IMG/VR virus record: IMGVR_UViG_640753023_000007
Reading direction: 5' to 3' (one strand)
Source: a virus
Lineage: Duplodnaviria > Heunggongvirae > Uroviricota > Caudoviricetes
DNA length: 41,597 bases
Positions 1-38,897 of this stretch are shown here, piece after piece; positions within the stretch are counted from its first letter, which is position 1; the number at the start of each line of letters is the position of its first letter. The notes under the pieces are model-generated. The model was given only the letters and a program-made list of their open reading frames with translations, had not been told where the DNA came from and did no database searches. A program made the position numbers and the translations under genes.

Positions 1-1143
1 CTATGCTGTTTTGATATCTACGATAATCCAGTCTTTACCACGATCATCATTGTATCGGTCGGTCATTTTTCTGGATTTATGGCCTAACAACTTTTGCGTA
101 TCCAGACCCTGTTCCCGATATAACCGTTCTGACAGAGATCGCTGCTCATGAAATGTGGGCGCAGTTCCTTGCTCCCATTTTATGCCACATTTTTCCCGGG
201 CCTTTTTAAAAGCCGTTGTCAGAGTATTCGCAGAAACCTGGTCTCCTCTGTTTGCTTGAGAGGTAGTGTGACGGTAATGGACCAGATATTTACTAACAAC
301 AGCATCCCTGCACTGAGATATAACTTCACGAAGGGTAATATTCAGAGCATCGCATTTCAGGTTAAGCGGAATAGCAAGTTTTGAACCGGTTTTTTCCTGA
401 GTAATGTGCAACATGTCGTCCCATATATCAGAGAATTTCAAATTGCAGATATCGCCTAAACGTTGTCCAGTAACAAGAGCAAGTAGCATGCCGCATTTTA
501 AATAGGGCTGCCGTCTGCTTACGCTGTCAAATATTGCCTGCCATTCGGGCAGTGACAATCTTTGGCGGTTTACTCGATTTCGTGGTTGTTTTGTTGCCTG
601 CGCTGGGTTAAATCCTGGCGGAACATGTCCTGCGTGTTGTGCTTCTTTGAAGACGTCGATCAACACCATTCTCACGACTTGCGCCATCCTGTTATGACCT
701 TCAGCCTTTACAGCATCAATTATTTCGGCAATATCAAGTGCGGTAATATCCTTGAGGTGTTGCATTCCACAATGCTCACGGAAAAGACGAATGGGTTTGC
801 CTTTTTGCCGATAGGAGTTGGGTCTTAGTTCATTATGTTGCAGCCTGTCCTCTTGGATAGAAATATATTTATCAAGCCATTCTGTCACCGTAATGTCTGA
901 GCGCCTGCCTTTCATTCTTTCCAGACGCTCATTGACGCTTAATATTTGTCTGGTACGTTGTTCAGCAATAATGGTATTTGCTTCAGTAGCAACTTGTTTT
1001 GCTTCATTCTCATCAGTTCCTAAGCTATGAAAACGACCGGATAGTGGATGTTTGTATTGCCAATATACCTTTCCGGTTCGCTTATCTAATTTGCAATATA
1101 AATTGGGTATAGAGATTTTGTGAGATCGGGGTCTAGCAGCCAT
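1..1143 (-). CDS. int: Tyrosine integrase (lambda Int family, divergent from lambda Int itself)
   Basis: 380-aa minus-strand ORF whose stop codon is at window positions 1-3; C-terminal region carries tyrosine-recombinase-like segments (TFHEQRSLSERLY, LLGHKSRKMTDRY) alignable to lambda Int; overlaps the upstream xis-like ORF as in lambda. Confidence 0.9.
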   Translation of the reverse strand: MAARPRSHKISIPNLYCKLDKRTGKVYWQYKHPLSGRFHSLGTDENEAKQVATEANTIIAEQRTRQILSVNERLERMKGRRSDITVTEWLDKYISIQEDRLQHNELRPNSYRQKGKPIRLFREHCGMQHLKDITALDIAEIIDAVKAEGHNRMAQVVRMVLIDVFKEAQHAGHVPPGFNPAQATKQPRNRVNRQRLSLPEWQAIFDSVSRRQPYLKCGMLLALVTGQRLGDICNLKFSDIWDDMLHITQEKTGSKLAIPLNLKCDALNITLREVISQCRDAVVSKYLVHYRHTTSQANRGDQVSANTLTTAFKKAREKCGIKWEQGTAPTFHEQRSLSERLYREQGLDTQKLLGHKSRKMTDRYNDDRGKDWIIVDIKTA

Positions 1144-1369
1144 CAGCGATTATCCTTTGGAGTTTTGGGTTTGCGTTTATTGGGAGTTGCGGTTCTGCAA
1201 GCGTTCCTACAAAACGGGAATTTCGGTCAATCATCCAGTAGCGACCAACTTTTATAGCGGGTGGGGCCATCATTTTCCCTTGCGCGTATTTTTTCAGAAC
1301 TCGCTCACTTGGTGCTAAGTCCCCAAATTCTTCTTTAGCCCAGTCCTGTAAAGTGATTAGTCGAGACAT
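1133..1369 (-). CDS. xis: Excisionase-like protein
   Basis: 78-aa ORF immediately upstream of int and overlapping its start by 11 nt; small size and position match an excisionase; identity by position and size rather than clear motif. Confidence 0.65.
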   Translation of the reverse strand: MSRLITLQDWAKEEFGDLAPSERVLKKYAQGKMMAPPAIKVGRYWMIDRNSRFVGTLAEPQLPINANPKLQRIIADGC

Positions 1370-1508
1370 TTGTCCTCCTCTTAGCTGCTGAGGGAGTTTG
1401 TGACCGATATATCTGACATGATATTAAGCTCATGGCAGGTACATCTCTTGACTGGTCATAGAGATAAATTTAATGCTGAGAAATGCAGTATTGAATTTAT
1501 CAATTTTT

Positions 1509-1748
1509 CTATTTCCTGCGCATGTCACGTAACTTCTTAATGTGTTCTGCCGTTTCGATCTCTTCTGCTATCCGATCTGCATCAGCTTTATTCACAGGTT
1601 CAAAGTCATGATTAAAGCGGAACATGCTGGCGATACATGTTCTGCCTTTTCGGATGTAGTGAACTTTGTTGTGGGTAGAACGCAGGATTTTGCAGGGAGT
1701 GCCGTGGTGGTCGACGTACCAGGTGTTAGGGTCAATCACTCTGAACAT
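1509..1748 (-). CDS. Hypothetical phage protein (79 aa)
   Basis: ORF in the accessory region between xis and the recombination genes; overlaps the upstream ORF end by 17 nt, suggesting an operon; no recognisable motif. Confidence 0.45.
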   Translation of the reverse strand: MFRVIDPNTWYVDHHGTPCKILRSTHNKVHYIRKGRTCIASMFRFNHDFEPVNKADADRIAEEIETAEHIKKLRDMRRK

Positions 1749-2061
1749 TCTTGACCTTGTGTTGTGCGGATTGATATTCAGTGCTGATATTCACCTTTAT
1801 AGCGAACACCTTTACCGGTTTATCGCCAAAGTGCGGATGTGTGATTGTCTTCACTTCATATCCGTCATACGGAACATCAATTCTGCGACTGGAATCGTCG
1901 CGCTTCGGATATCCCTTTGTGATAATCAGGCGGTCATATTCCCGGAACATAATTCGCTTATTCCAGTAGTCATTACACAAGCGATACTCTTCCGTTTTCT
2001 CTCCGCGAATCATGGCATCGAAGTATTCACTTTTAACAGCAAGTTGCAGGTTAGCCATCAC
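1732..2061 (-). CDS. Hypothetical protein, possible ASCH/PUA-like fold
   Basis: 109-aa ORF; N-terminal pattern (EYFDAMIRGEKTEEYR then REYDRLI) resembles ASCH-superfamily proteins; ATGA start-stop overlap with the upstream TraR-like gene. Confidence 0.45.
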   Translation of the reverse strand: MMANLQLAVKSEYFDAMIRGEKTEEYRLCNDYWNKRIMFREYDRLIITKGYPKRDDSSRRIDVPYDGYEVKTITHPHFGDKPVKVFAIKVNISTEYQSAQHKVKNVQSD

Positions 2062-2279
2062 TTAATCCCCCTTTGTTTGCGGATAAGCTCCAGATCTTGC
2101 TGGCAACTGGCGCAAGTCCGACAACCCTGAACGGCCAGGCGTCTTCGTTCATCTATCGGATCGCCACACTCACAACAATGAGTGGCAGATACAGCCAGGT
2201 AGTTCAGGCGGCGCATTTTTATTGCTGTGTTGCGCTGTAATTCTTCTATTTCTGATGCTGAATCAATGATGTCTGCCAT
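2058..2279 (-). CDS. TraR/DksA-family C4 zinc-finger protein
   Basis: 73-aa ORF with two Cys pairs (CCEC ... CRTC) typical of the small TraR/DksA zinc-finger proteins found in lambdoid prophages. Confidence 0.7.
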   Translation of the reverse strand: MADIIDSASEIEELQRNTAIKMRRLNYLAVSATHCCECGDPIDERRRLAVQGCRTCASCQQDLELIRKQRGIK

Positions 2280-2331
2280 CTTTCATTAATCCCTGAACTG
2301 TTGGTTAATACGCTTGAGGGTGAATGCGAAC

Positions 2332-2355
2332 AATAAAAAAGGAGCCTGTAGCTCC
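2332..2355 (-). terminator. Candidate intrinsic terminator on the leftward (pL-derived) transcript
   Basis: On the minus strand a 5-bp GC stem (GGAGC / GCTCC, loop of 5 nt) is followed directly by TTTTTTATT; short stem, so weak. Confidence 0.35.
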
Positions 2356-2472
2356 CTGATAATTTTGCTTTTCATGTTCATCGTTCCTTAAAGACGCCGT
2401 TTAACATGCCGATTGCCAGGCTTAAATGAGTCGGTGTGAATCCCTTCAGCGTTACCGTTTCGCGGTGCTTCT

Positions 2473-2655
2473 TCAGTACGCTACGGCAAATGTCATTGAC
2501 GTTTTTGGAAACTGCTGTCTGACTTTTTTGATTTCAGAATTAGCCTGACGGGCAATGCTGCGAAGGGCGTTTTCTTGCTGAGGTGTCACTGAACAAGCCC
2601 CATGTCGGCAAGCATAAGCACACAGAATATGAAGCCCGCTGCCAGAAAAATGCAT
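2473..2655 (-). CDS. Hypothetical small protein in the position of lambda orf61
   Basis: 60-aa ORF downstream of the orf63-like gene on the leftward operon; assignment by position only. Confidence 0.35.
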   Translation of the reverse strand: MHFSGSGLHILCAYACRHGACSVTPQQENALRSIARQANSEIKKVRQQFPKTSMTFAVAY

Positions 2656-2665
2656 TCAGTGGTTG

Positions 2666-2857
2666 TCATACCTGGTCTCTCTCATCTGCTTCTGCTTTCG
2701 CCACCATCATTTCCAGCTTTTGTGAAAGGGATGTGGCTAACGTATGAAATTCTTCGTCTGTTTCTGCTGGTATTGGCACAAACCTGACTCCAATTTGAGC
2801 AAGGCTATGTGCCAAATCAATACTCGTTCTTAACTCAACAGGAGATGCTTTGTGCAT
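2666..2857 (-). CDS. Small protein matching lambda orf63 in size and position
   Basis: 63-aa ORF; its 28-nt overlap with the adjacent exo-proximal ORF matches the lambda orf63/orf60a arrangement as I recall it. Confidence 0.55.
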   Translation of the reverse strand: MHKASPVELRTSIDLAHSLAQIGVRFVPIPAETDEEFHTLATSLSQKLEMMVAKAEADERDQV

Positions 2858-3012
2858 ACCGCCCCCCGTTTATTATTTATCTCCTCAGCCAGCCGCTGGG
2901 CTTTCAGCGGATTTCGGATAACAGAAAGACCGTGAAATACCCAGCCTCGCTTTGTAACGGAGTAGACGAAAGTGATCGCGCCTACCCGGATATTATCGTG
3001 AGGATGGGTCAT
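2830..3012 (-). CDS. Small protein matching lambda orf60a in size and position
   Basis: Track ORF 2830-3018; starting at the second Met gives 60 aa and a 4-nt ATGA overlap with the exo stop, as in lambda. Confidence 0.5.
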
Positions 3013-3689
3013 CGCCATTGCTCTCCAAATACAAAACCAATTTCAGCCAGTGCTTCGTCCATTTTTTCGATGAACTCCGGCACCATCTCGTCAAAACTCG
3101 CCATGTACTTTTCATCCCGCTCAACCACGACATAATGCAGGCCTTCACGCTTCATTCGTGGGTCATAGTTGGCAAAGTACCAGGCATCTTTTCGTGTCAC
3201 CCACATGCTGTACTGCACCTGGGCCATGTAAGCCGACTTTATGGCCTCGAAACCACCGAGCCGGAACTTCATGAAATCCCGGGAGGTAAACGGGCATTTC
3301 AGCTCAAGGCCATTGCCGTCACTGCATAAACCATCGGGAGAGCAGGCGGTGCGCATACTTTCGTCGCGATAGATGATCGGGGATTCAGTAACATTCACGC
3401 CGGAAGTGAATTCAAACAGGGTTCTGGCGTCGTTCTCGTACTGTTTTCCCCACGCCAGCGCCTTAGCATTAACTTCCGGAGCCACACCGGTGCAAACCTC
3501 AGCCAGCAGGGTGTGGAAGTAGGACATTTTCATGTCAGGCCACTTCTTTCCTGAGCGGGGCTTTGCTATCACGTTGTGAACTTCTGAAGCGGTGATGACG
3601 CCGAGCCGTAATTTGTGCCATGCATCATCCCCCTGTTCGACAGCTCTCACGTCGATCCCGGTACGCTGCAGGATAATGTCCGGTGTCAT
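3009..3689 (-). CDS. exo: Lambda exonuclease (Red alpha)
   Basis: 226-aa ORF whose sequence ([39 protein letters not shown]...) matches lambda Exo essentially throughout as recalled; overlaps bet stop. Confidence 0.95.
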
Positions 3690-4992: not shown

Positions 4993-5125
4993 TTTTTGGG
5001 ACTCCTGGCTGATTAAGTATGTCGATAAGGCGTTTCCATCCGTCACGTAATTTACGGGTGATTCGTTCAAGTAAAGATTCGGAAGGGCAGCCAGCAACAG
5101 GCCACCCTGCAATGGCATATTGCAT
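4961..5125 (-). CDS. cIII: CIII (FtsH/HflB protease inhibitor), 54 aa
   Basis: Translated by hand from the minus strand: [54 protein letters not shown], 54 codons plus stop; below the ORF-track size cutoff. Confidence 0.85.
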   Translation of the reverse strand: MQYAIAGWPVAGCPSESLLERITRKLRDGWKRLIDILNQPGVPKNGSNNYGYPD

Positions 5126-5197
5126 GGTGTGCTCCTTATTTATACATAACGAAAAACGCCTCGAGTGAAGCGTAATTGGTATGCGGTAACGCCGCGC

Positions 5198-15074: not shown

Positions 15075-16157
15075 TTAGAACTGATAAACCAGACCTACAG
15101 CGACGATGTCGTCGGTATCAATACCAGCTGTTTTGGTAAACTTACTATCGTCAATTAAGTTGATTTTGTAATCAACAAAAGTGGACATGTTTTTATTAAA
15201 GTAGTAAGTAGCACCGACATCGACATACTTGACTAAGTCTCGGTCACCATGAACACCAAGGTCTTTACCTTTTGACTGAAGGTAAGCAACAGATGGACGC
15301 AGACCGAAGTCAAACTGATATTGTGCTACTGCTTCAAAGTTTTGTGCTTTGTTTGCAATATGGTTATTACCAAAAACGGTCATATTCTGAGTTTCAGAAT
15401 ATGTGGTAGCCAGATAGATATTGTTCGCATCATATTTCAGGCCTGCAGCCCATACTTCCGCATTTTTGCCGGAGGCATTGAATTTGCTCTTACCATAGGC
15501 GACCTGACCGTCAGTGCGATCTGATTTAGCATAGGTTGCACCCACGCCGAATCCTTCATACTCATAAGTAGTGGAGAAACCGAAACCATCACCATTGGCT
15601 TCAGTTACGTCAGTGCGGTCATTTTTACCCTGATACTGAGCAGCAAAGTTCAGGCCATCGACCAGACCAAAGAAGTCGTTGTTACGATAAGTTGCAACAC
15701 CAGTAGTGCGACCAGTCATGAACACATCTGTTTGGGTCCAGGTATCACCACCGAATTCTGGCAGAACGTCAGTCCACGCACCGATGTCGTATGCTACACC
15801 GTAGTTACGGCCGTAATCGATTGAGCCGTAATCACCAAATTTCAGGCCTGCAAATGCAAGACGGGTTTTGTCTTTGGAAGAACCTTGAGATTCAGCACGG
15901 TTGCCTTTGAATTCATATTCCCACTGACCGAAACCAGTCAGTTGATCGTTGATTTGGGTTTCACCTTTGAAGCCAAGACGGGCATAAGTAGTATCACCAT
16001 CATCTGCATCATTAGAGGAGAAGTAGTGCTTGGCATTAACTTTCCCGTATAGATCCAGCTTGTTACTGTCTTTATTATAAATTTCAGCTGCCTGAGCAGA
16101 CATCGCCATCAGTACTGATGCAGCTACAGCAGAAATTGCCACTGTTAATTTTTTCAT
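15075..16157 (-). CDS. nmpC: Outer membrane porin NmpC/OmpD-like (lysogenic conversion moron)
   Basis: Track ORF 15075-16217; start at [23 protein letters not shown] (signal peptide); C-terminal residue F; general-porin family features; inserted antisense between Q and the lysis genes as in DLP12. Confidence 0.9.
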
Positions 16158-16582
16158 TGTACGCCCTTTTTTTGAACTATTATTAAAAAATGATGTCACT
16201 GCGCGATAAATATTCATCTAATCAATGTGATTATTTCAAGATGTAAGTTTTAGTTTCTCATTTAATTTGTGAAGTAGATCTCTATTTTTATCTGAACCTT
16301 TTCTATCTAATCCTATTCATGGCTCTTGTCTGAACAAAAATAAATCTATTAGCTAATTTATATTAATGGCACTTATTTATAAGTGCTCTATAATTCTTTA
16401 GCTTAATTTAAACAAACTAAAAATAACATTGGAAATTATTAACTGGTTATTTGTTGAAGTTTTCTTATGCATTTGTGGTGGTGTTTTGAACACTCGGTGG
16501 CATTCTCACAAATATCATTTAGTAGTTTACGTACGTAAAAAATTGGTTATGCTGTTAAGAGTGGTTACTTCGTCACACAGCT

Positions 16583-35413: not shown

Positions 35414-38400
35414 ATGGGTAAAGGCAGCAGTAAGGGGCATACCCCGCGCGAAGCGAAGGACAACCTGAAATCATCCCAGATGCTGAGCGTGATAGACGCC
35501 ATCAGCGAAGGGCCGGTTGAAGGTCCGGTGGATGGATTAAAAAGCGTGCTGCTGAACAGTACGCCGGTGCTGGACAGTGAGGGGAATACCAATATATTCG
35601 GCGTCACGGTGGTGTTCCGGGCCGGTGAGCAGGAGCAGACTCCGCCGGAGGGATTTGAATCCTCCGGCTCCGAGACGGTGCTCGGTACAGAAGTGAAATA
35701 TGACACGCCGATCACCCGGACCATCACGTCGGCAAACATTGACCGTCTGCGTTTTACTTTCGGCGTGCAGGCACTGGTGGAAACCACCTCAAAGGGGGAC
35801 AGGAATCCATCGGAAGTCCGCCTGCTGGTTCAGATTCAACGTAACGGTGGCTGGGTGACGGAAAAAGACATCACCATTAAGGGCAAAACCACGTCGCAGT
35901 ATCTGGCCTCGGTGGTGGTGGATAACCTGCCGCCGCGCCCGTTTAATATCCGGATGCGCAGGATGACGCCGGACAGCACCACAGACCAGTTGCAGAACAA
36001 AACGCTCTGGTCGTCATACACCGAAATCATCGATGTGAAACAGTGCTACCCGAACACGGCACTGGTCGGCGTACAGGTGGACTCGGAGCAGTTCGGCAGC
36101 CAGCAGGTGAGCCGTAATTATCATCTTCGCGGGCGCATTCTGCAGGTGCCGTCGAACTATAACCCGCAGACGCGGCAATACAGCGGTATCTGGGACGGAA
36201 CGTTTAAGCCAGCATACAGCAACAACATGGCCTGGTGTCTGTGGGATATGCTGACCCATCCGCGCTACGGCATGGGGAAACGTCTTGGTGCGGCAGATGT
36301 GGATAAATGGGCGCTGTATGTCATCGGCCAGAATTGCGACCAGTCAGTGCCGGACGGCTTTGGCGGCACGGAGCCGCGCATCACCTGTAATGCGTACCTG
36401 ACCACACAGCGCAAGGCGTGGGATGTGCTCAGTGATTTTTGCTCGGCGATGCGCTGTATGCCGGTATGGAACGGGCAGACGCTGACATTCGTGCAGGACC
36501 GACCGTCGGATAAGGTGTGGACCTATAACCGCAGTAATGTGGTGATGCCGGATGATGGCGCGCCGTTCCGCTACAGCTTCAGCGCCCTGAAAGACCGCCA
36601 TAATGCCGTTGAGGTGAACTGGATTGACCCGGATAACGGCTGGGAGACGGCGACAGAGCTTGTGGAGGACACGCAGGCCATTGCCCGTTACGGTCGTAAC
36701 GTCACGAAGATGGATGCCTTTGGCTGTACCAGCCGGGGGCAGGCACACCGCGCCGGGCTGTGGCTGATTAAAACGGAGCTGCTGGAAACGCAGACCGTGG
36801 ACTTCAGCGTGGGTGCAGAAGGGCTTCGCCATGTACCGGGTGATGTCATTGAAATCTGTGATGATGACTATGCGGGGATCAGCATCGGCGGGCGCGTGCT
36901 GGCGGTGAACAACCAGACGCGGACACTGACGCTCGACCGTGAAATCACGCTGCCATCCTCCGGCACCACGCTGATAAGCCTGGCTGACGGACAGGGGAAT
37001 CCGGTCAGCGTGGAGGTCCAGTCCGTCACCGACGGCGTGAAGGTAAAAGTGAGCCGTGTTCCTGACGGCGTTGCAGAATACAGCGTGTGGGGGCTGAAGT
37101 TGCCAACGTTGCGCCAGCGCCTGTTCCGCTGTGTGAGTATCCGTGAGAACGATGACGGCACGTATGCCATCACTGCCGTGCAGCATGTACCGGAAAAAGA
37201 GGCCATCGTGGATAACGGGGCGCACTTTGACGGCGACCAGAGCGGCACGGTGAATGGTGTCACGCCGCCAGCGGTGCAGCACCTGACTGCCGAAGTCACC
37301 GCAGACAGCGGGGAATATCAGGTGCTGGCGCGCTGGGACACGCCGAAGGTGGTGAAGGGGGTGAGCTTTATGCTTCGCCTGACCGTGGCAGCGGATGACG
37401 GCAGTGAGCGGCTGGTCAGCACGGCCCGGACGACGGAAACCACATACCGCTTCAGGCAACTGGCGCTGGGGAACTACAGGCTGACAGTCCGGGCGGTAAA
37501 TGCGTGGGGGCAGCAGGGCGATCCGGCATCGGTATCGTTCCGGATTGCCGCACCGGCAGCGCCGTCGCAGATTGAGCTGACACCGGGGTATTTTCAGATA
37601 ACCGCCACGCCGCATCTTGCGGTTTATGATCCGACGGTACAGTTTGAGTTCTGGTTCTCGGAAAAGCGGATTGCGGATATCAGGCAGGTTGAAACCACAG
37701 CACGCTATCTTGGCACGGCGCTGTACTGGATAGCCGCCAGTATCAATATCAAACCGGGCCATGATTATTATTTTTACATCCGCAGTGTGAACACCGTTGG
37801 CAAATCGGCATTTGTGGAGGCTGTTGGCCAGCCGAGTGATGATGCATCCGGCTATCTGAATTTTTTCAAAGGAGAGATAGGGAAAACCCATCTGGCTCAG
37901 GAGTTGTGGACGCAGATTGATAACGGTCAGCTTGCGCCTGACCTGGCTGAAATCAGGACGTCCATTACGGGTGTCAGCAATGAAATCACGCAGACCGTCA
38001 ATAAGAAACTGGAAGACCAGAGTGCAGCGATCCAGCAGATACAGAAGGTTCAGGTTGATACAAATAATAACCTGAACAGCATGTGGGCTGTGAAGCTGCA
38101 GCAGATGCAGGACGGACGCCTTTATATCGCGGGTATTGGTGCCGGTGTTGAGAATACTCCCTGACGGTATGCAGAGTCAGGTGCTGCTGGCGGCGGACAG
38201 GATTGCGATGATTAATCCTGCGAATGGCAACACAAAGCCGATGTTTGTTGGGCAGGGCGATCAGATATTCATGAACGAAGTGTTCCTGAAATATCTGACG
38301 GCTCCCACCATTACCAGCGGTGGCAATCCCCCAACGTTTTCACTGACACCTGATGGTCGACTTTCTGCGAAAAATGCGGATATCAGCGGTAACGTGAACG

Positions 38401-38897
38401 CGAACTCCGGGACGCTCAACAACGTCACGATTAATCAGAACTGTCGGATTCTGGGAAAACTGTCAGCTAACCAGATTGAAGGTGATATTGTCAAAACGGT
38501 GGGAAAAGCCTTTCCGAGAAATGGCAGTTATGCCAGCGGTACAATAACGGTCACTGTGTACGATGACCAGGCTTTTGACCGTCAGATAGTAGTCCCCCCC
38601 GTTCTGTTTCGTGGGGGTAAGCATGAAAACTTCAACAGCAACAACCAACAGTCATACTGGTATTCAACCTGTAAGCTGCAGGTACTGAAGAACGGACAGG
38701 AAATCTTTCAGCAACCCGCGACGGATGTCAGCAGGGTATTTTCATCAGTCATTGATATGCCTGCCGGACACGGCCATGTCACCCTGACTTTCAATGTTTC
38801 TTCATATGGTGCTAATAACTGGACGCCAACGACCAGTATCAGCGACCTTCTTGTTGTTGTGATGAAGAAATCTACAGCCGGTATCAGTATCAGTTGA
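35414..38897 (+). pseudogene. J: Tail tip / host specificity protein J, split by an apparent +1 frameshift at 38159-38161
   Basis: Frame A ORF 35414-38164 ends ...[10 protein letters not shown] then TGA; the protein continues in another frame as [23 protein letters not shown]... to 38897; an extra C in the CCC run at 38159-38161 explains the shift. Confidence 0.8.

What the first reader, a model, noticed from the sequence alone, without database searches (positions are those of the whole stretch)
1509..2279. Accessory three-gene cluster (TraR/DksA zinc finger, ASCH-like, unknown) where lambda carries ea8.5/ea22
Between xis and the lambda-type orf61/63/60a-exo block, three translationally coupled genes replace lambda ea8.5/ea22. 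One is a TraR/DksA-type C4 zinc finger, a family that modulates host RNA polymerase. One has an ASCH/PUA-like N-terminal signature. This is a variable cargo position in lambdoid phages.
Basis: partly seen in the sequence, partly recalled or inferred. Interest (0 to 1): 0.4.

Follow-up and report, generated by a model that had tools for sequence, protein, structure and literature searches.

The report
Known lambdoid exo-xis accessory genes
The three small genes are real but ordinary: the zinc-finger gene is the phage's copy of lambda orf73, a studied regulator of host RNA polymerase, and the other two are widespread, already-annotated phage accessory genes found identically in phage 21 and hundreds of E. 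coli prophages.

Summary
The three overlapping minus-strand genes are at the stated coordinates: a 73-aa TraR/DksA zinc finger (2058-2279), a 108-aa ASCH-like protein (1732-2058) and a 79-aa DUF4222 protein (1509-1748).

- **Zinc finger:** it is not cargo replacing lambda genes. It is the ortholog of lambda Orf73 (66/73 identical, same position). RefSeq lambda does not annotate orf73. Published work shows lambda Orf73 binds RNA polymerase, inhibits rRNA and r-protein promoters, slows host growth and raises phage yield.
- **Mosaic break:** window-lambda DNA homology (~96%) runs from exo to the last codons of orf73 and stops there. Only the ASCH-like and DUF4222 genes sit where lambda has ea22, ea8.5 and orf55.
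- **DUF4222 protein:** a Tudor/SH3-like barrel plus a helix. Its only studied relative is the prophage regulator RgdR (24% identity).

The DNA is 100% identical to phage PhiR63_2 and 97% to phage 21. The trio occurs in 592 of 5426 complete E. coli genomes. Already known; low interest.

The parts
2058..2279 (-). orf73 ortholog: a 73-aa TraR/DksA-family C4 zinc-finger protein that binds the RNA polymerase secondary channel
   Evidence: PF01258 36 bits against a cut-off of 24.9. phrog_54 'DksA-like zinc-finger' at 2.5e-25. 66/73 identical to lambda Orf73 and syntenic with it. DxxDxA = D3/D6/A8; CxxC...CxxC = C35/C38/C56/C59; ExxRL = E44/R47/L48 (hallmarks as defined in PMC8614690 and PMC9239242).
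1732..2058 (-). ASCH-like gene (108 aa; the core family is 93-96 aa, and this copy has a 14-aa low-confidence C-terminal tail)
1509..1748 (-). DUF4222 gene (79 aa): a five-strand Tudor/SH3-like barrel followed by a long C-terminal helix
2060..2075 (.). Mosaic junction. Homology to lambda (and to prophages lacking ASCH) ends inside the last ~12-20 codons of orf73.
   Evidence: Pairwise DNA alignments with lambda and with the E. coli MB1 prophage. In MB1, homology resumes at the DUF4222 start codon, so the ASCH gene is a discrete cassette.
2286..2381 (-). Conserved 31-aa ORF directly upstream of orf73. It contains a terminator-like hairpin (2357-2339).
   Evidence: Nearly identical to lambda DNA. 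Hairpin found. A 31-aa peptide in this lambda region was reported by ribosome profiling (cited in PMC8614690); that the two are the same is inferred.
2473..3012 (-). Conserved lambda-type block: orf61-like (2473-2655), orf63/DUF1382 (2666-2857) and orf60a/DUF1317 (2830-3012). exo follows at 3009-3689.
   Evidence: Pfam DUF1382 at 9e-29 and DUF1317 at 8.5e-39. ~96% DNA identity to lambda. Annotations of ev207 and phage 21.
1..1369 (-). Phage-21-type integrase (1-1143) and excisionase (1133-1369), which bound the cluster on the other side
   Evidence: Pfam Exc and phrog_629 excisionase. Identical arrangement next to icd in phage 21, ev207 and the E. coli MB1 prophage.

Best explanation
This is the xis-proximal end of the 'exo-xis' region of a phage-21/ev207-type lambdoid phage. 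The region is the distal part of the early leftward (pL, N-antiterminated) operon. It holds three independent small accessory genes, read one after another by coupled translation.

1. **Zinc-finger gene = lambda orf73 ortholog.** By close orthology it should bind the secondary channel of host RNA polymerase without ppGpp. It should insert its DxxDxA tip near the active site, inhibit rRNA and ribosomal-protein promoters, slow host growth and raise phage yield. This is shown experimentally for lambda Orf73 and inferred here from 90% identity with every hallmark residue kept.

2. **Middle gene = small ASCH-superfamily beta-barrel** with an intact GxKxxExR pocket. It most likely binds or hydrolyses an N4-acylated cytosine nucleoside or RNA base, such as ac4C. 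This is inferred from fold and motif only.

3. **Third gene = DUF4222 protein**, a Tudor/SH3-like barrel plus a charged helix. It most likely acts as a small adaptor on host gene expression, like its distant relative RgdR. This is a weak inference.

Only genes 2 and 3 occupy the slot where lambda carries ea22, ea8.5 and orf55. They are mosaic cassettes that come and go independently.
For: **Identity and position**
- The ORFs and their overlaps are present as described.
- Orf73 is 66/73 identical to lambda Orf73, which sits unannotated between ea22 and orf61 in NC_001416.
- The DNA is collinear and ~96% identical to lambda from exo to the 3' end of orf73, then unrelated.
- The lambda Orf73 mechanism and phenotypes come from PMC9239242. 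The structural hallmarks come from PMC8614690. All hallmarks are present here.

**ASCH-like gene**
- The AF2 model has pLDDT 82.
- G19/K21/E24/R26 are conserved across 88 relatives of 36-76% identity.
- hhalign puts the motif in register with YqfB G19/K21/T24/R26.
- The motif Lys and Glu are catalytic in ASCH ac4C amidohydrolases (YqfB PMC6972931).

**DUF4222 gene**
- Pfam hit at E 3.6e-19 and AF2 pLDDT 89.
- RgdR falls in the same Pfam family, at 24% identity. RgdR regulatory phenotypes are in PMC3378721.

**Ordinariness and modularity**
- The region is 100% identical to PhiR63_2, 99.9% to ev207 and 97.3% to phage 21, and is already annotated there.
- The trio is in 592 of 5426 complete E. 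coli genomes, and parts of it in 3620.
- The ASCH cassette is absent from the MB1 prophage, with clean gene-boundary junctions.
- ASCH sits in a different neighbourhood in an O157 Stx prophage and in Jerseyvirus, Vibrio, Ralstonia and Brucella phages.
Against: - No experiment exists for this exact Orf73 allele. Seven substitutions separate it from lambda Orf73, none in a hallmark residue.
- TIGR02419 scores 55.1 bits, just under its 59.7 cut-off.
- The ASCH assignment fails sequence-profile thresholds. Pfam gives 14.3 bits against 21.2, and 0 of 38 family members pass. hmmsearch against PDB sequences and hhalign against YqfB are not significant.
- The DUF4222 fold matches are generic small barrels.
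- RgdR is only 24% identical, and its functionally important RGD tripeptide is not conserved here.
- Expression from pL is inferred from position. No promoter or expression data were obtained.
Confidence: 0.85

Rival explanations
1. One reading: the three genes form one accessory cargo cassette that was acquired together, replaces lambda ea8.5/ea22 and works as a functional unit.
For: The three genes are contiguous and translationally coupled. They travel together in 592 E. coli genomes and in phages 21, ev207 and PhiR63_2.
Against: orf73 is present in lambda itself at 90% identity and lies inside the conserved block. In lambda, orf73 is coupled to ea22 in the same way (a GTGA overlap). The ASCH cassette is cleanly absent from many prophages that keep orf73 and DUF4222. 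ASCH occurs without either neighbour in Stx, Jersey-like, Vibrio, Ralstonia and Brucella phages.
Confidence: 0.07
2. The ASCH-like protein is not an amidohydrolase. It is a non-catalytic reader of a modified base or of RNA, or a single-strand ribonuclease like ZmASCH. In that role it would be used for anti-restriction or RNA turnover.
Against: The best matches are ASCH proper, not YTH or EVE. The Lys and Glu that are catalytic in ASCH deacetylases are essentially invariant. There was no PADLOC defence-family hit.
Confidence: 0.3
3. The DUF4222 protein is an RNA-polymerase-binding Tudor domain, like the UvrD/PcrA C-terminal domain or the CarD and Mfd RNAP-interacting domains. It would cooperate with Orf73 in reprogramming host transcription.
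Against: Small five-strand barrels match many unrelated proteins at this Z (PWWP, FeoA, KOW, ribosomal L27). Sequence identity to the matches is 4-18%. Adjacency in a mosaic region is weak evidence.
Confidence: 0.1
4. The real gene under the middle segment is the plus-strand 154-aa ORF (1666-2130), not the minus-strand ASCH-like ORF.
For: The plus-strand ORF is open and matches phrog_20945 at E 1e-57.
Against: In Vibrio, Ralstonia and Brucella phage homologs the antisense frame carries 1-4 stops while the ASCH frame stays open. The minus-strand product folds confidently into a known fold with a conserved motif. Every flanking gene is on the minus strand.
Confidence: 0.02

Closest known systems
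Bacteriophage lambda Orf73 (TraR/DksA family; Gopalkrishnan et al. 2022, PMC9239242)
   Same: Same length (73 aa), 90% identical and in the same genomic position downstream of orf61. The DxxDxA tip, the C4 zinc finger and the ExxRL motif are all kept. The stop codon overlaps the start of the next gene in both phages.
   Different: Seven substitutions (H27Y, Q28L, I30V, V49A, E61Q, S67R, S72I), none in a hallmark residue. The downstream neighbour is the ASCH-like gene instead of ea22.
Phage 21 genes CPT_21_36/37/38 and phage ev207 gp34/35/36 (also PhiR63_2)
   Same: Same three genes in the same order between a phage-21-type xis and orf61. DNA identity is 97.3-100%. A 1990s phage 21 record (M61865) already contains the ASCH-like ORF at 100% identity.
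   Different: Essentially nothing. The PhiR63_2 annotation omits the DUF4222 CDS.
ASCH-domain proteins: E. coli YqfB (ac4C amidohydrolase, PDB 9kyf), T. thermophilus ASCH, human EOLA1 and TRIP4-ASCH, E. faecalis 3iuw
   Same: Beta-barrel with a helix between strands 1 and 2. The GxKxxExR octapeptide is of the Glu ('GKER') type, at the same residue numbers as YqfB G19/K21/T24/R26. Similar small size.
   Different: Sequence similarity is undetectable beyond the motif and falls below the Pfam PF04266 threshold. This is a separate, mostly phage or prophage family with about 1210 clusters at 50% identity. No biochemical data exist for it.
RgdR (ECs1581) of E. coli O157:H7 prophage-like island OI-51/Sp7 (PMC3378721)
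   Same: Same Pfam family DUF4222 (E 2e-23 for RgdR, 3.6e-19 here). A small basic protein with a barrel core followed by a C-terminal helix, encoded on a mobile element.
   Different: Only 24% identity over 68 residues. The N-terminal 19 residues of RgdR and its RGD tripeptide are absent. RgdR lies upstream of a P4-like primase in a phage-inducible chromosomal island, not next to xis in a lambdoid phage.
Lambda ea22 / ea8.5 / orf55 (the genes occupying the same slot in lambda)
   Same: Same position between orf73 and xis. Same strand and same early leftward operon.
   Different: No sequence similarity. They belong to different families: Ea22 is a coiled-coil protein, Ea8.5 a homeodomain/zinc-finger hybrid, and Orf55 a Gp2-like model (PMC8614690).

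Membership tests
TraR/DksA family (lambda Orf73 subgroup) | Match to Pfam PF01258 zf-dskA_traR above the gathering score | tested here: met
   36 bits against a cut-off of 24.9, E 6.7e-9.
TraR/DksA family (lambda Orf73 subgroup) | N-terminal helix carrying the DxxDxA motif that reaches the RNAP active site | tested here: met
   M-A-D3-I-I-D6-S-A8. Motif defined in PMC9239242.
TraR/DksA family (lambda Orf73 subgroup) | C4 zinc finger (CxxC ... CxxC) | tested here: met
   C35-x2-C38 and C56-x2-C59.
TraR/DksA family (lambda Orf73 subgroup) | ExxR[K/L] motif for the beta' Si3 contact, and an acidic residue in the C-terminal helix | tested here: met
   E44-R-R-R47-L48, identical to lambda. D62/E64 lie in the C-terminal helix.
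TraR/DksA family (lambda Orf73 subgroup) | Orthology with lambda orf73 (sequence and synteny) | tested here: met
   66/73 identical. Flanking DNA is collinear at ~96% identity.
TraR/DksA family (lambda Orf73 subgroup) | NCBIfam TIGR02419 (C4_traR_proteo) trusted cut-off | tested here: inconclusive
   55.1 bits against a cut-off of 59.7, E 8.7e-15, full-length match 1-64/64.
TraR/DksA family (lambda Orf73 subgroup) | Binds RNAP and inhibits rRNA promoters without ppGpp | not testable with these tools
   Shown for lambda Orf73 only (PMC9239242).
ASCH domain (PUA-like superfamily) | Five-to-six-strand beta-barrel with an alpha-helix between strands 1 and 2 | tested here: met
ASCH domain (PUA-like superfamily) | Conserved GxKxxExR octapeptide in the helix1-strand2 region | tested here: met
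   G19-E-K21-T-E-E24-Y-R26. Across 88 relatives: G 82/88, K 88/88, E 87/88, R 85/88. Motif definition from PMC6803910.
ASCH domain (PUA-like superfamily) | Match to Pfam PF04266 above the gathering score | tested here: not met
   14.3 bits against 21.2. 21 of 38 members give sub-threshold hits and none passes. Ten distant relatives give no hit. I therefore file it as ASCH-like (superfamily level), not as a PF04266 member.
ASCH domain (PUA-like superfamily) | N4-acetylcytidine amidohydrolase or tRNA ac4C eraser activity | not testable with these tools
   Reported for YqfB and for 19 other ASCH proteins (PMC6972931; bioRxiv 10.64898/2026.02.27.708502). No phage member was tested.
DUF4222 (Pfam PF13973) | Match above the gathering score | tested here: met
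   68.5 bits against 27, covering profile positions 2-53 of 53.
RgdR (ECs1581) orthologs | High similarity over the 99-aa protein (>77% reported for orthologs) | tested here: not met
   24% identity over 68 residues. It is a distant paralog, not an ortholog.
RgdR (ECs1581) orthologs | RGD tripeptide at residues 20-22 | tested here: not met
   RgdR 20-RGD-22 lies N-terminal to the aligned region. The corresponding window residues are ~P7-N8-T9.
Lambda ea22 / ea8.5 | Sequence homology to the lambda genes in the same slot | tested here: not met
   The DNA alignment drops to random-level matches after orf73. There were no Ea22 or Ea8.5 family hits.
Known anti-phage defence systems (PADLOC) | Match to any PADLOC model | tested here: not met
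   No hits for any of the three proteins at E <= 0.1.

The most novel reading that the evidence does not exclude
The phage ASCH-like protein is an early-expressed eraser of N4-acetylcytidine. For example, it could strip ac4C34 from host elongator tRNA-Met, or scavenge ac4C released from degraded RNA. Together with Orf73's shut-down of rRNA and r-protein synthesis, it would form a two-pronged phage attack on the host translation apparatus. In the same scheme the neighbouring DUF4222 Tudor-like protein would be a third RNAP- or nucleic-acid-directed modulator.
Probability: 0.12. Interest if true: 0.5.

Novelty: already known. Interest (0 to 1): 0.12.

Why it matters
It matters little as a discovery. 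The sequence is identical to deposited phages. All three genes are already named in RefSeq. The one gene with a clear mechanism has been characterised in lambda.

Two points have some residual value.

1. RefSeq lambda (NC_001416) does not annotate orf73. Comparisons against that record will keep mis-scoring orf73 orthologs as 'novel cargo'.
2. The ASCH-like family is large: about 1210 clusters at 50% identity, and homologs in 332 phage records. The DUF4222 family, present in 116 phage records and also widespread, likewise has no experimentally tested phage member. Recent work on ASCH ac4C deacetylases gives a cheap, specific assay that could assign the ASCH-like family a function.

Tried and rejected
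- **Profile searches against PDB sequences.** I tried the ASCH-like alignments (A1 with 38 sequences, A6 with 88) and the DUF4222 alignment (A3). Nothing was significant. 3iuw appeared only at E 0.45.
- **hhalign of A6 against E. coli YqfB.** Probability was 0.4. It was useful only to show the motif register.
- **Pfam scan of ten distant ASCH-like relatives**, to bridge to PF04266. No ASCH hits.
- **NCBIfam.** No model for the ASCH-like or DUF4222 proteins.
- **PADLOC.** No hits.
- **Promoter and terminator scan of 1100-3100.** No internal minus-strand promoter was found. One terminator-like hairpin lies upstream of orf73. The counts are no higher than in shuffled sequence.
- **AT-rich palindrome after the DUF4222 stop, folded as RNA.** z = -1.8, not remarkable.
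- **Plus-strand 154-aa ORF (phrog_20945).** Rejected as a shadow ORF.
- **DUF4222 as RgdR ortholog.** Rejected: 24% identity and no RGD.
- **Literature search for 'exo-xis' together with 'ASCH'.** No papers.
- **tRNA scan and Rfam scan of the window.** Only the lambda cIII thermoregulator was found.

Full report
**1. Observation**

The window is a lambdoid phage genome in prophage order. It starts at the stop codon of a phage-21-type integrase (1-1143, minus strand), followed by xis (1133-1369). Three further ORFs lie on the minus strand: 2279-2058 (73 aa), 2058-1732 (108 aa from the ATG) and 1748-1509 (79 aa).

The first stop and the second start share one base (TGATG). The second and third genes overlap by 17 nt. 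Each start has a purine-rich Shine-Dalgarno-like element upstream.

Family matches are as follows:
- The 73-aa protein hits PF01258 zf-dskA_traR (36 bits, cut-off 24.9).
- The 79-aa protein hits PF13973 DUF4222 (68.5 bits, cut-off 27).
- The 108-aa protein hits Pfam ASCH only below threshold (14.3 bits, cut-off 21.2), and only over the N-terminal 23 residues.
- All three match PHROG families strongly: phrog_54, phrog_625 and phrog_285.

The described features are therefore real and at the stated coordinates.

**2. The zinc finger is lambda orf73**

The RefSeq lambda record annotates nothing between ea22 and orf61. A 73-aa ORF sits there, and it is 66/73 identical to the window protein. This is lambda Orf73.

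A DNA alignment of window 1100-3100 with the lambda xis-exo region shows ~96% identity and collinearity. This holds through exo, orf60a, orf63, orf61, a conserved 31-aa ORF and orf73. Homology ends abruptly in the last ~12 codons of orf73.

In lambda the next gene, ea22, starts with a GTG that overlaps the orf73 TGA. Here the ASCH-like ATG overlaps the TGA in the same manner. orf73 is thus part of the conserved exo-xis block. That block is described in the literature as orf60a-orf63-orf61-orf73-ea22 followed by variable genes (PMC8614690).

Every hallmark listed for TraR and Orf73 is present:
- DxxDxA: D3, D6, A8.
- C4 zinc finger: C35/C38/C56/C59.
- ExxRL: E44/R47/L48.
- Acidic residues in the C-terminal helix.

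Lambda Orf73 has been shown to do the following (PMC9239242):
- bind RNAP;
- complement a dksA null strain;
- slow host growth;
- raise phage yield 3-4-fold, an effect lost in the D3A/D6A mutant.

**3. The ASCH-like gene**

A search of the large protein collection found 654 relatives. Most are 93-96 aa, come from Enterobacteriaceae, and many are named 'ASCH domain-containing protein' by NCBI. The window allele carries an extra 14-residue C-terminal tail. The tail is modelled with low confidence, and it results from the junction with the next gene.

An exhaustive profile search found 1210 clusters at 50% identity.

The AlphaFold2 model has mean pLDDT 82. It is a beta-barrel with a helix between strands 1 and 2. 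Its structural matches are:
- **Foldseek:** agrees, with 3iuw at probability 0.96, but no hit reaches E < 0.001.

The ASCH signature GxKxxExR (PMC6803910) is present as G19-x-K21-x-x-E24-x-R26. Among 88 relatives of 36-76% identity, K21 is invariant, E24 is kept in 87 of 88 and R26 in 85 of 88. An aromatic residue at position 12 is kept in 87 of 88. hhalign places the motif in register with YqfB G19/K21/T24/R26.

In ASCH deacetylases the motif Lys and Glu (or Thr) are catalytically essential (bioRxiv 10.64898/2026.02.27.708502).

Against membership, sequence profiles do not reach significance. I therefore call the protein ASCH-like at superfamily level. An ac4C or N4-acylcytidine amidohydrolase function is an inference, with a non-catalytic base or RNA reader as the main rival.

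A plus-strand 154-aa ORF covers the same DNA and matches a PHROG family. Its frame is broken by stops in Vibrio, Ralstonia and Brucella phage homologs, while the ASCH frame stays open. It is a shadow ORF.

**4. The DUF4222 gene**

86 close relatives were found, all carrying PF13973. The AF2 model (pLDDT 89) is a five-strand SH3/Tudor-like barrel at residues 10-52, followed by a 25-residue helix.

The literature holds one characterised family member, RgdR (ECs1581). It is encoded on the O157:H7 island OI-51/Sp7. It activates LEE1 and type III secretion, represses motility, and binds DNA only weakly and non-specifically (PMC3378721, PMC10877973).

I retrieved RgdR from the Sakai genome. It matches PF13973 at E 2e-23. 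It is only 24% identical to the window protein, and its RGD tripeptide has no counterpart here. The window protein is a distant paralog. The 'small regulatory adaptor' reading is the best available guess, and it is weak.

**5. Modularity and prevalence**

The 2-kb region is 100% identical to phage PhiR63_2, 99.9% to ev207 and 97.3% to the classical phage 21. In ev207 and phage 21 all three genes are annotated. In PhiR63_2 the ASCH-like gene and orf73 are annotated but the DUF4222 CDS is omitted. The first 25 kb of the window match PhiR63_2 at 100%.

Among 5426 complete E. coli genomes, 592 carry at least 80% of the 771-bp trio and 3620 carry part of it.

Many prophages have xis-DUF4222-orf73 without ASCH. 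Alignment with one of them (strain MB1) shows that homology breaks near the end of orf73 and resumes at the DUF4222 start codon. The ASCH gene is therefore a discrete cassette bounded at gene borders.

In an O157:H7 Stx prophage the slot reads orf73, ea22-like, five small genes, DUF551, ASCH, a hypothetical gene, then xis.

ASCH homologs occur in 332 phage records, including Jerseyvirus, P1-like, Vibrio, Ralstonia and Brucella phages. DUF4222 homologs occur in 116 phage records.

The genes assort independently, however, which argues against a three-gene functional unit.

**6. Mechanism (committed)**

The genes lie at the distal end of the leftward early operon, and would be transcribed from pL after N antitermination. 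This is inferred from synteny with lambda, since no internal minus-strand promoter was found.

- **Orf73** reprograms host RNAP. This is shown for the lambda ortholog.
- **The ASCH-like protein** probably acts on an N4-acylated cytosine in a nucleoside or in RNA. This is inferred.
- **The DUF4222 protein** probably modulates gene expression through protein or nucleic-acid contacts. This is weakly inferred.

**7. Verdict**

Novelty is 'already known', and interest is low.

The only forward-looking point concerns the ASCH-like and DUF4222 phage families. They are large, they are untested, and they now have assayable hypotheses.

Noticed in passing
window 2473-2655 (- strand); lambda L003 3213-3525: The orf61-family gene differs by frameshifts between phages. 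Relative to lambda, the window has one fewer A in an A-run and a 4-nt (GGAT) deletion, so its ORF ends early (60 aa). Phage 21 has a continuous 72-aa form. Lambda's own 61-aa orf61 looks like a +1-frameshifted version of that longer form, whose remainder stays open as a separate 60-aa TTG ORF in lambda.
   Followed up: partly
window 2286-2381 (- strand), hairpin 2357-2339: A 31-aa ORF directly upstream of orf73 is nearly identical to lambda DNA. It contains an intrinsic-terminator-like hairpin (8-bp stem followed by a T-run). It may correspond to the 31-aa peptide seen by ribosome profiling in lambda, and to a leftward terminator that N-modified RNAP reads through.
   Followed up: no
window 1666-2130 (+ strand): A 154-aa antisense ORF over the ASCH-like gene matches phrog_20945 (E 1e-57). 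That PHROG family therefore appears to be built from wrong-strand gene calls. The frame is interrupted in distant homologs while the ASCH frame is not.
   Followed up: yes
window 1463-1501: An AT-rich palindrome with a 16-bp stem lies immediately after the DUF4222 stop codon, in the 140-bp spacer before xis. Its RNA folding z-score is only -1.8. The PhiR63_2 annotation places a plus-strand 46-aa 'hypothetical protein' here (window 1400-1540) and omits the DUF4222 CDS.
   Followed up: partly
window 35414-38164 and 38136-38897 (+ strand): The central tail fibre gene J is split into two overlapping frames. Against the otherwise ~99.9% identical PhiR63_2, the window has 1-nt insertions in short C runs, at about 38159 and 38594. 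These are either real frameshifts or homopolymer sequencing errors in one of the two records.
   Followed up: partly
database proteins P0061, P0171, P0203: Chimeric proteins in public genomes join Bet to ASCH, orf61 to DUF4222, and the Ea22 N-terminus to the DUF4222 C-terminus (the last in phage D2). This shows frequent in-frame deletions and recombination across the exo-xis region.
   Followed up: no
L005 3160-4224 (E. coli MB1 prophage): In a related icd-integrated prophage, the orf61/orf63 position between orf73 and orf60a is occupied by a 354-aa DGQHR domain protein (a DndB/DptF-like family). This is another cargo insertion inside the supposedly conserved block.
   Followed up: no
window 5080-5138 (- strand); 15075-16217 (- strand): The Rfam lambda cIII thermoregulator element is present (88.5 bits). 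A 380-aa porin gene (OmpD/NmpC-like, phrog_410) sits as a moron downstream of the replication/nin region.
   Followed up: no
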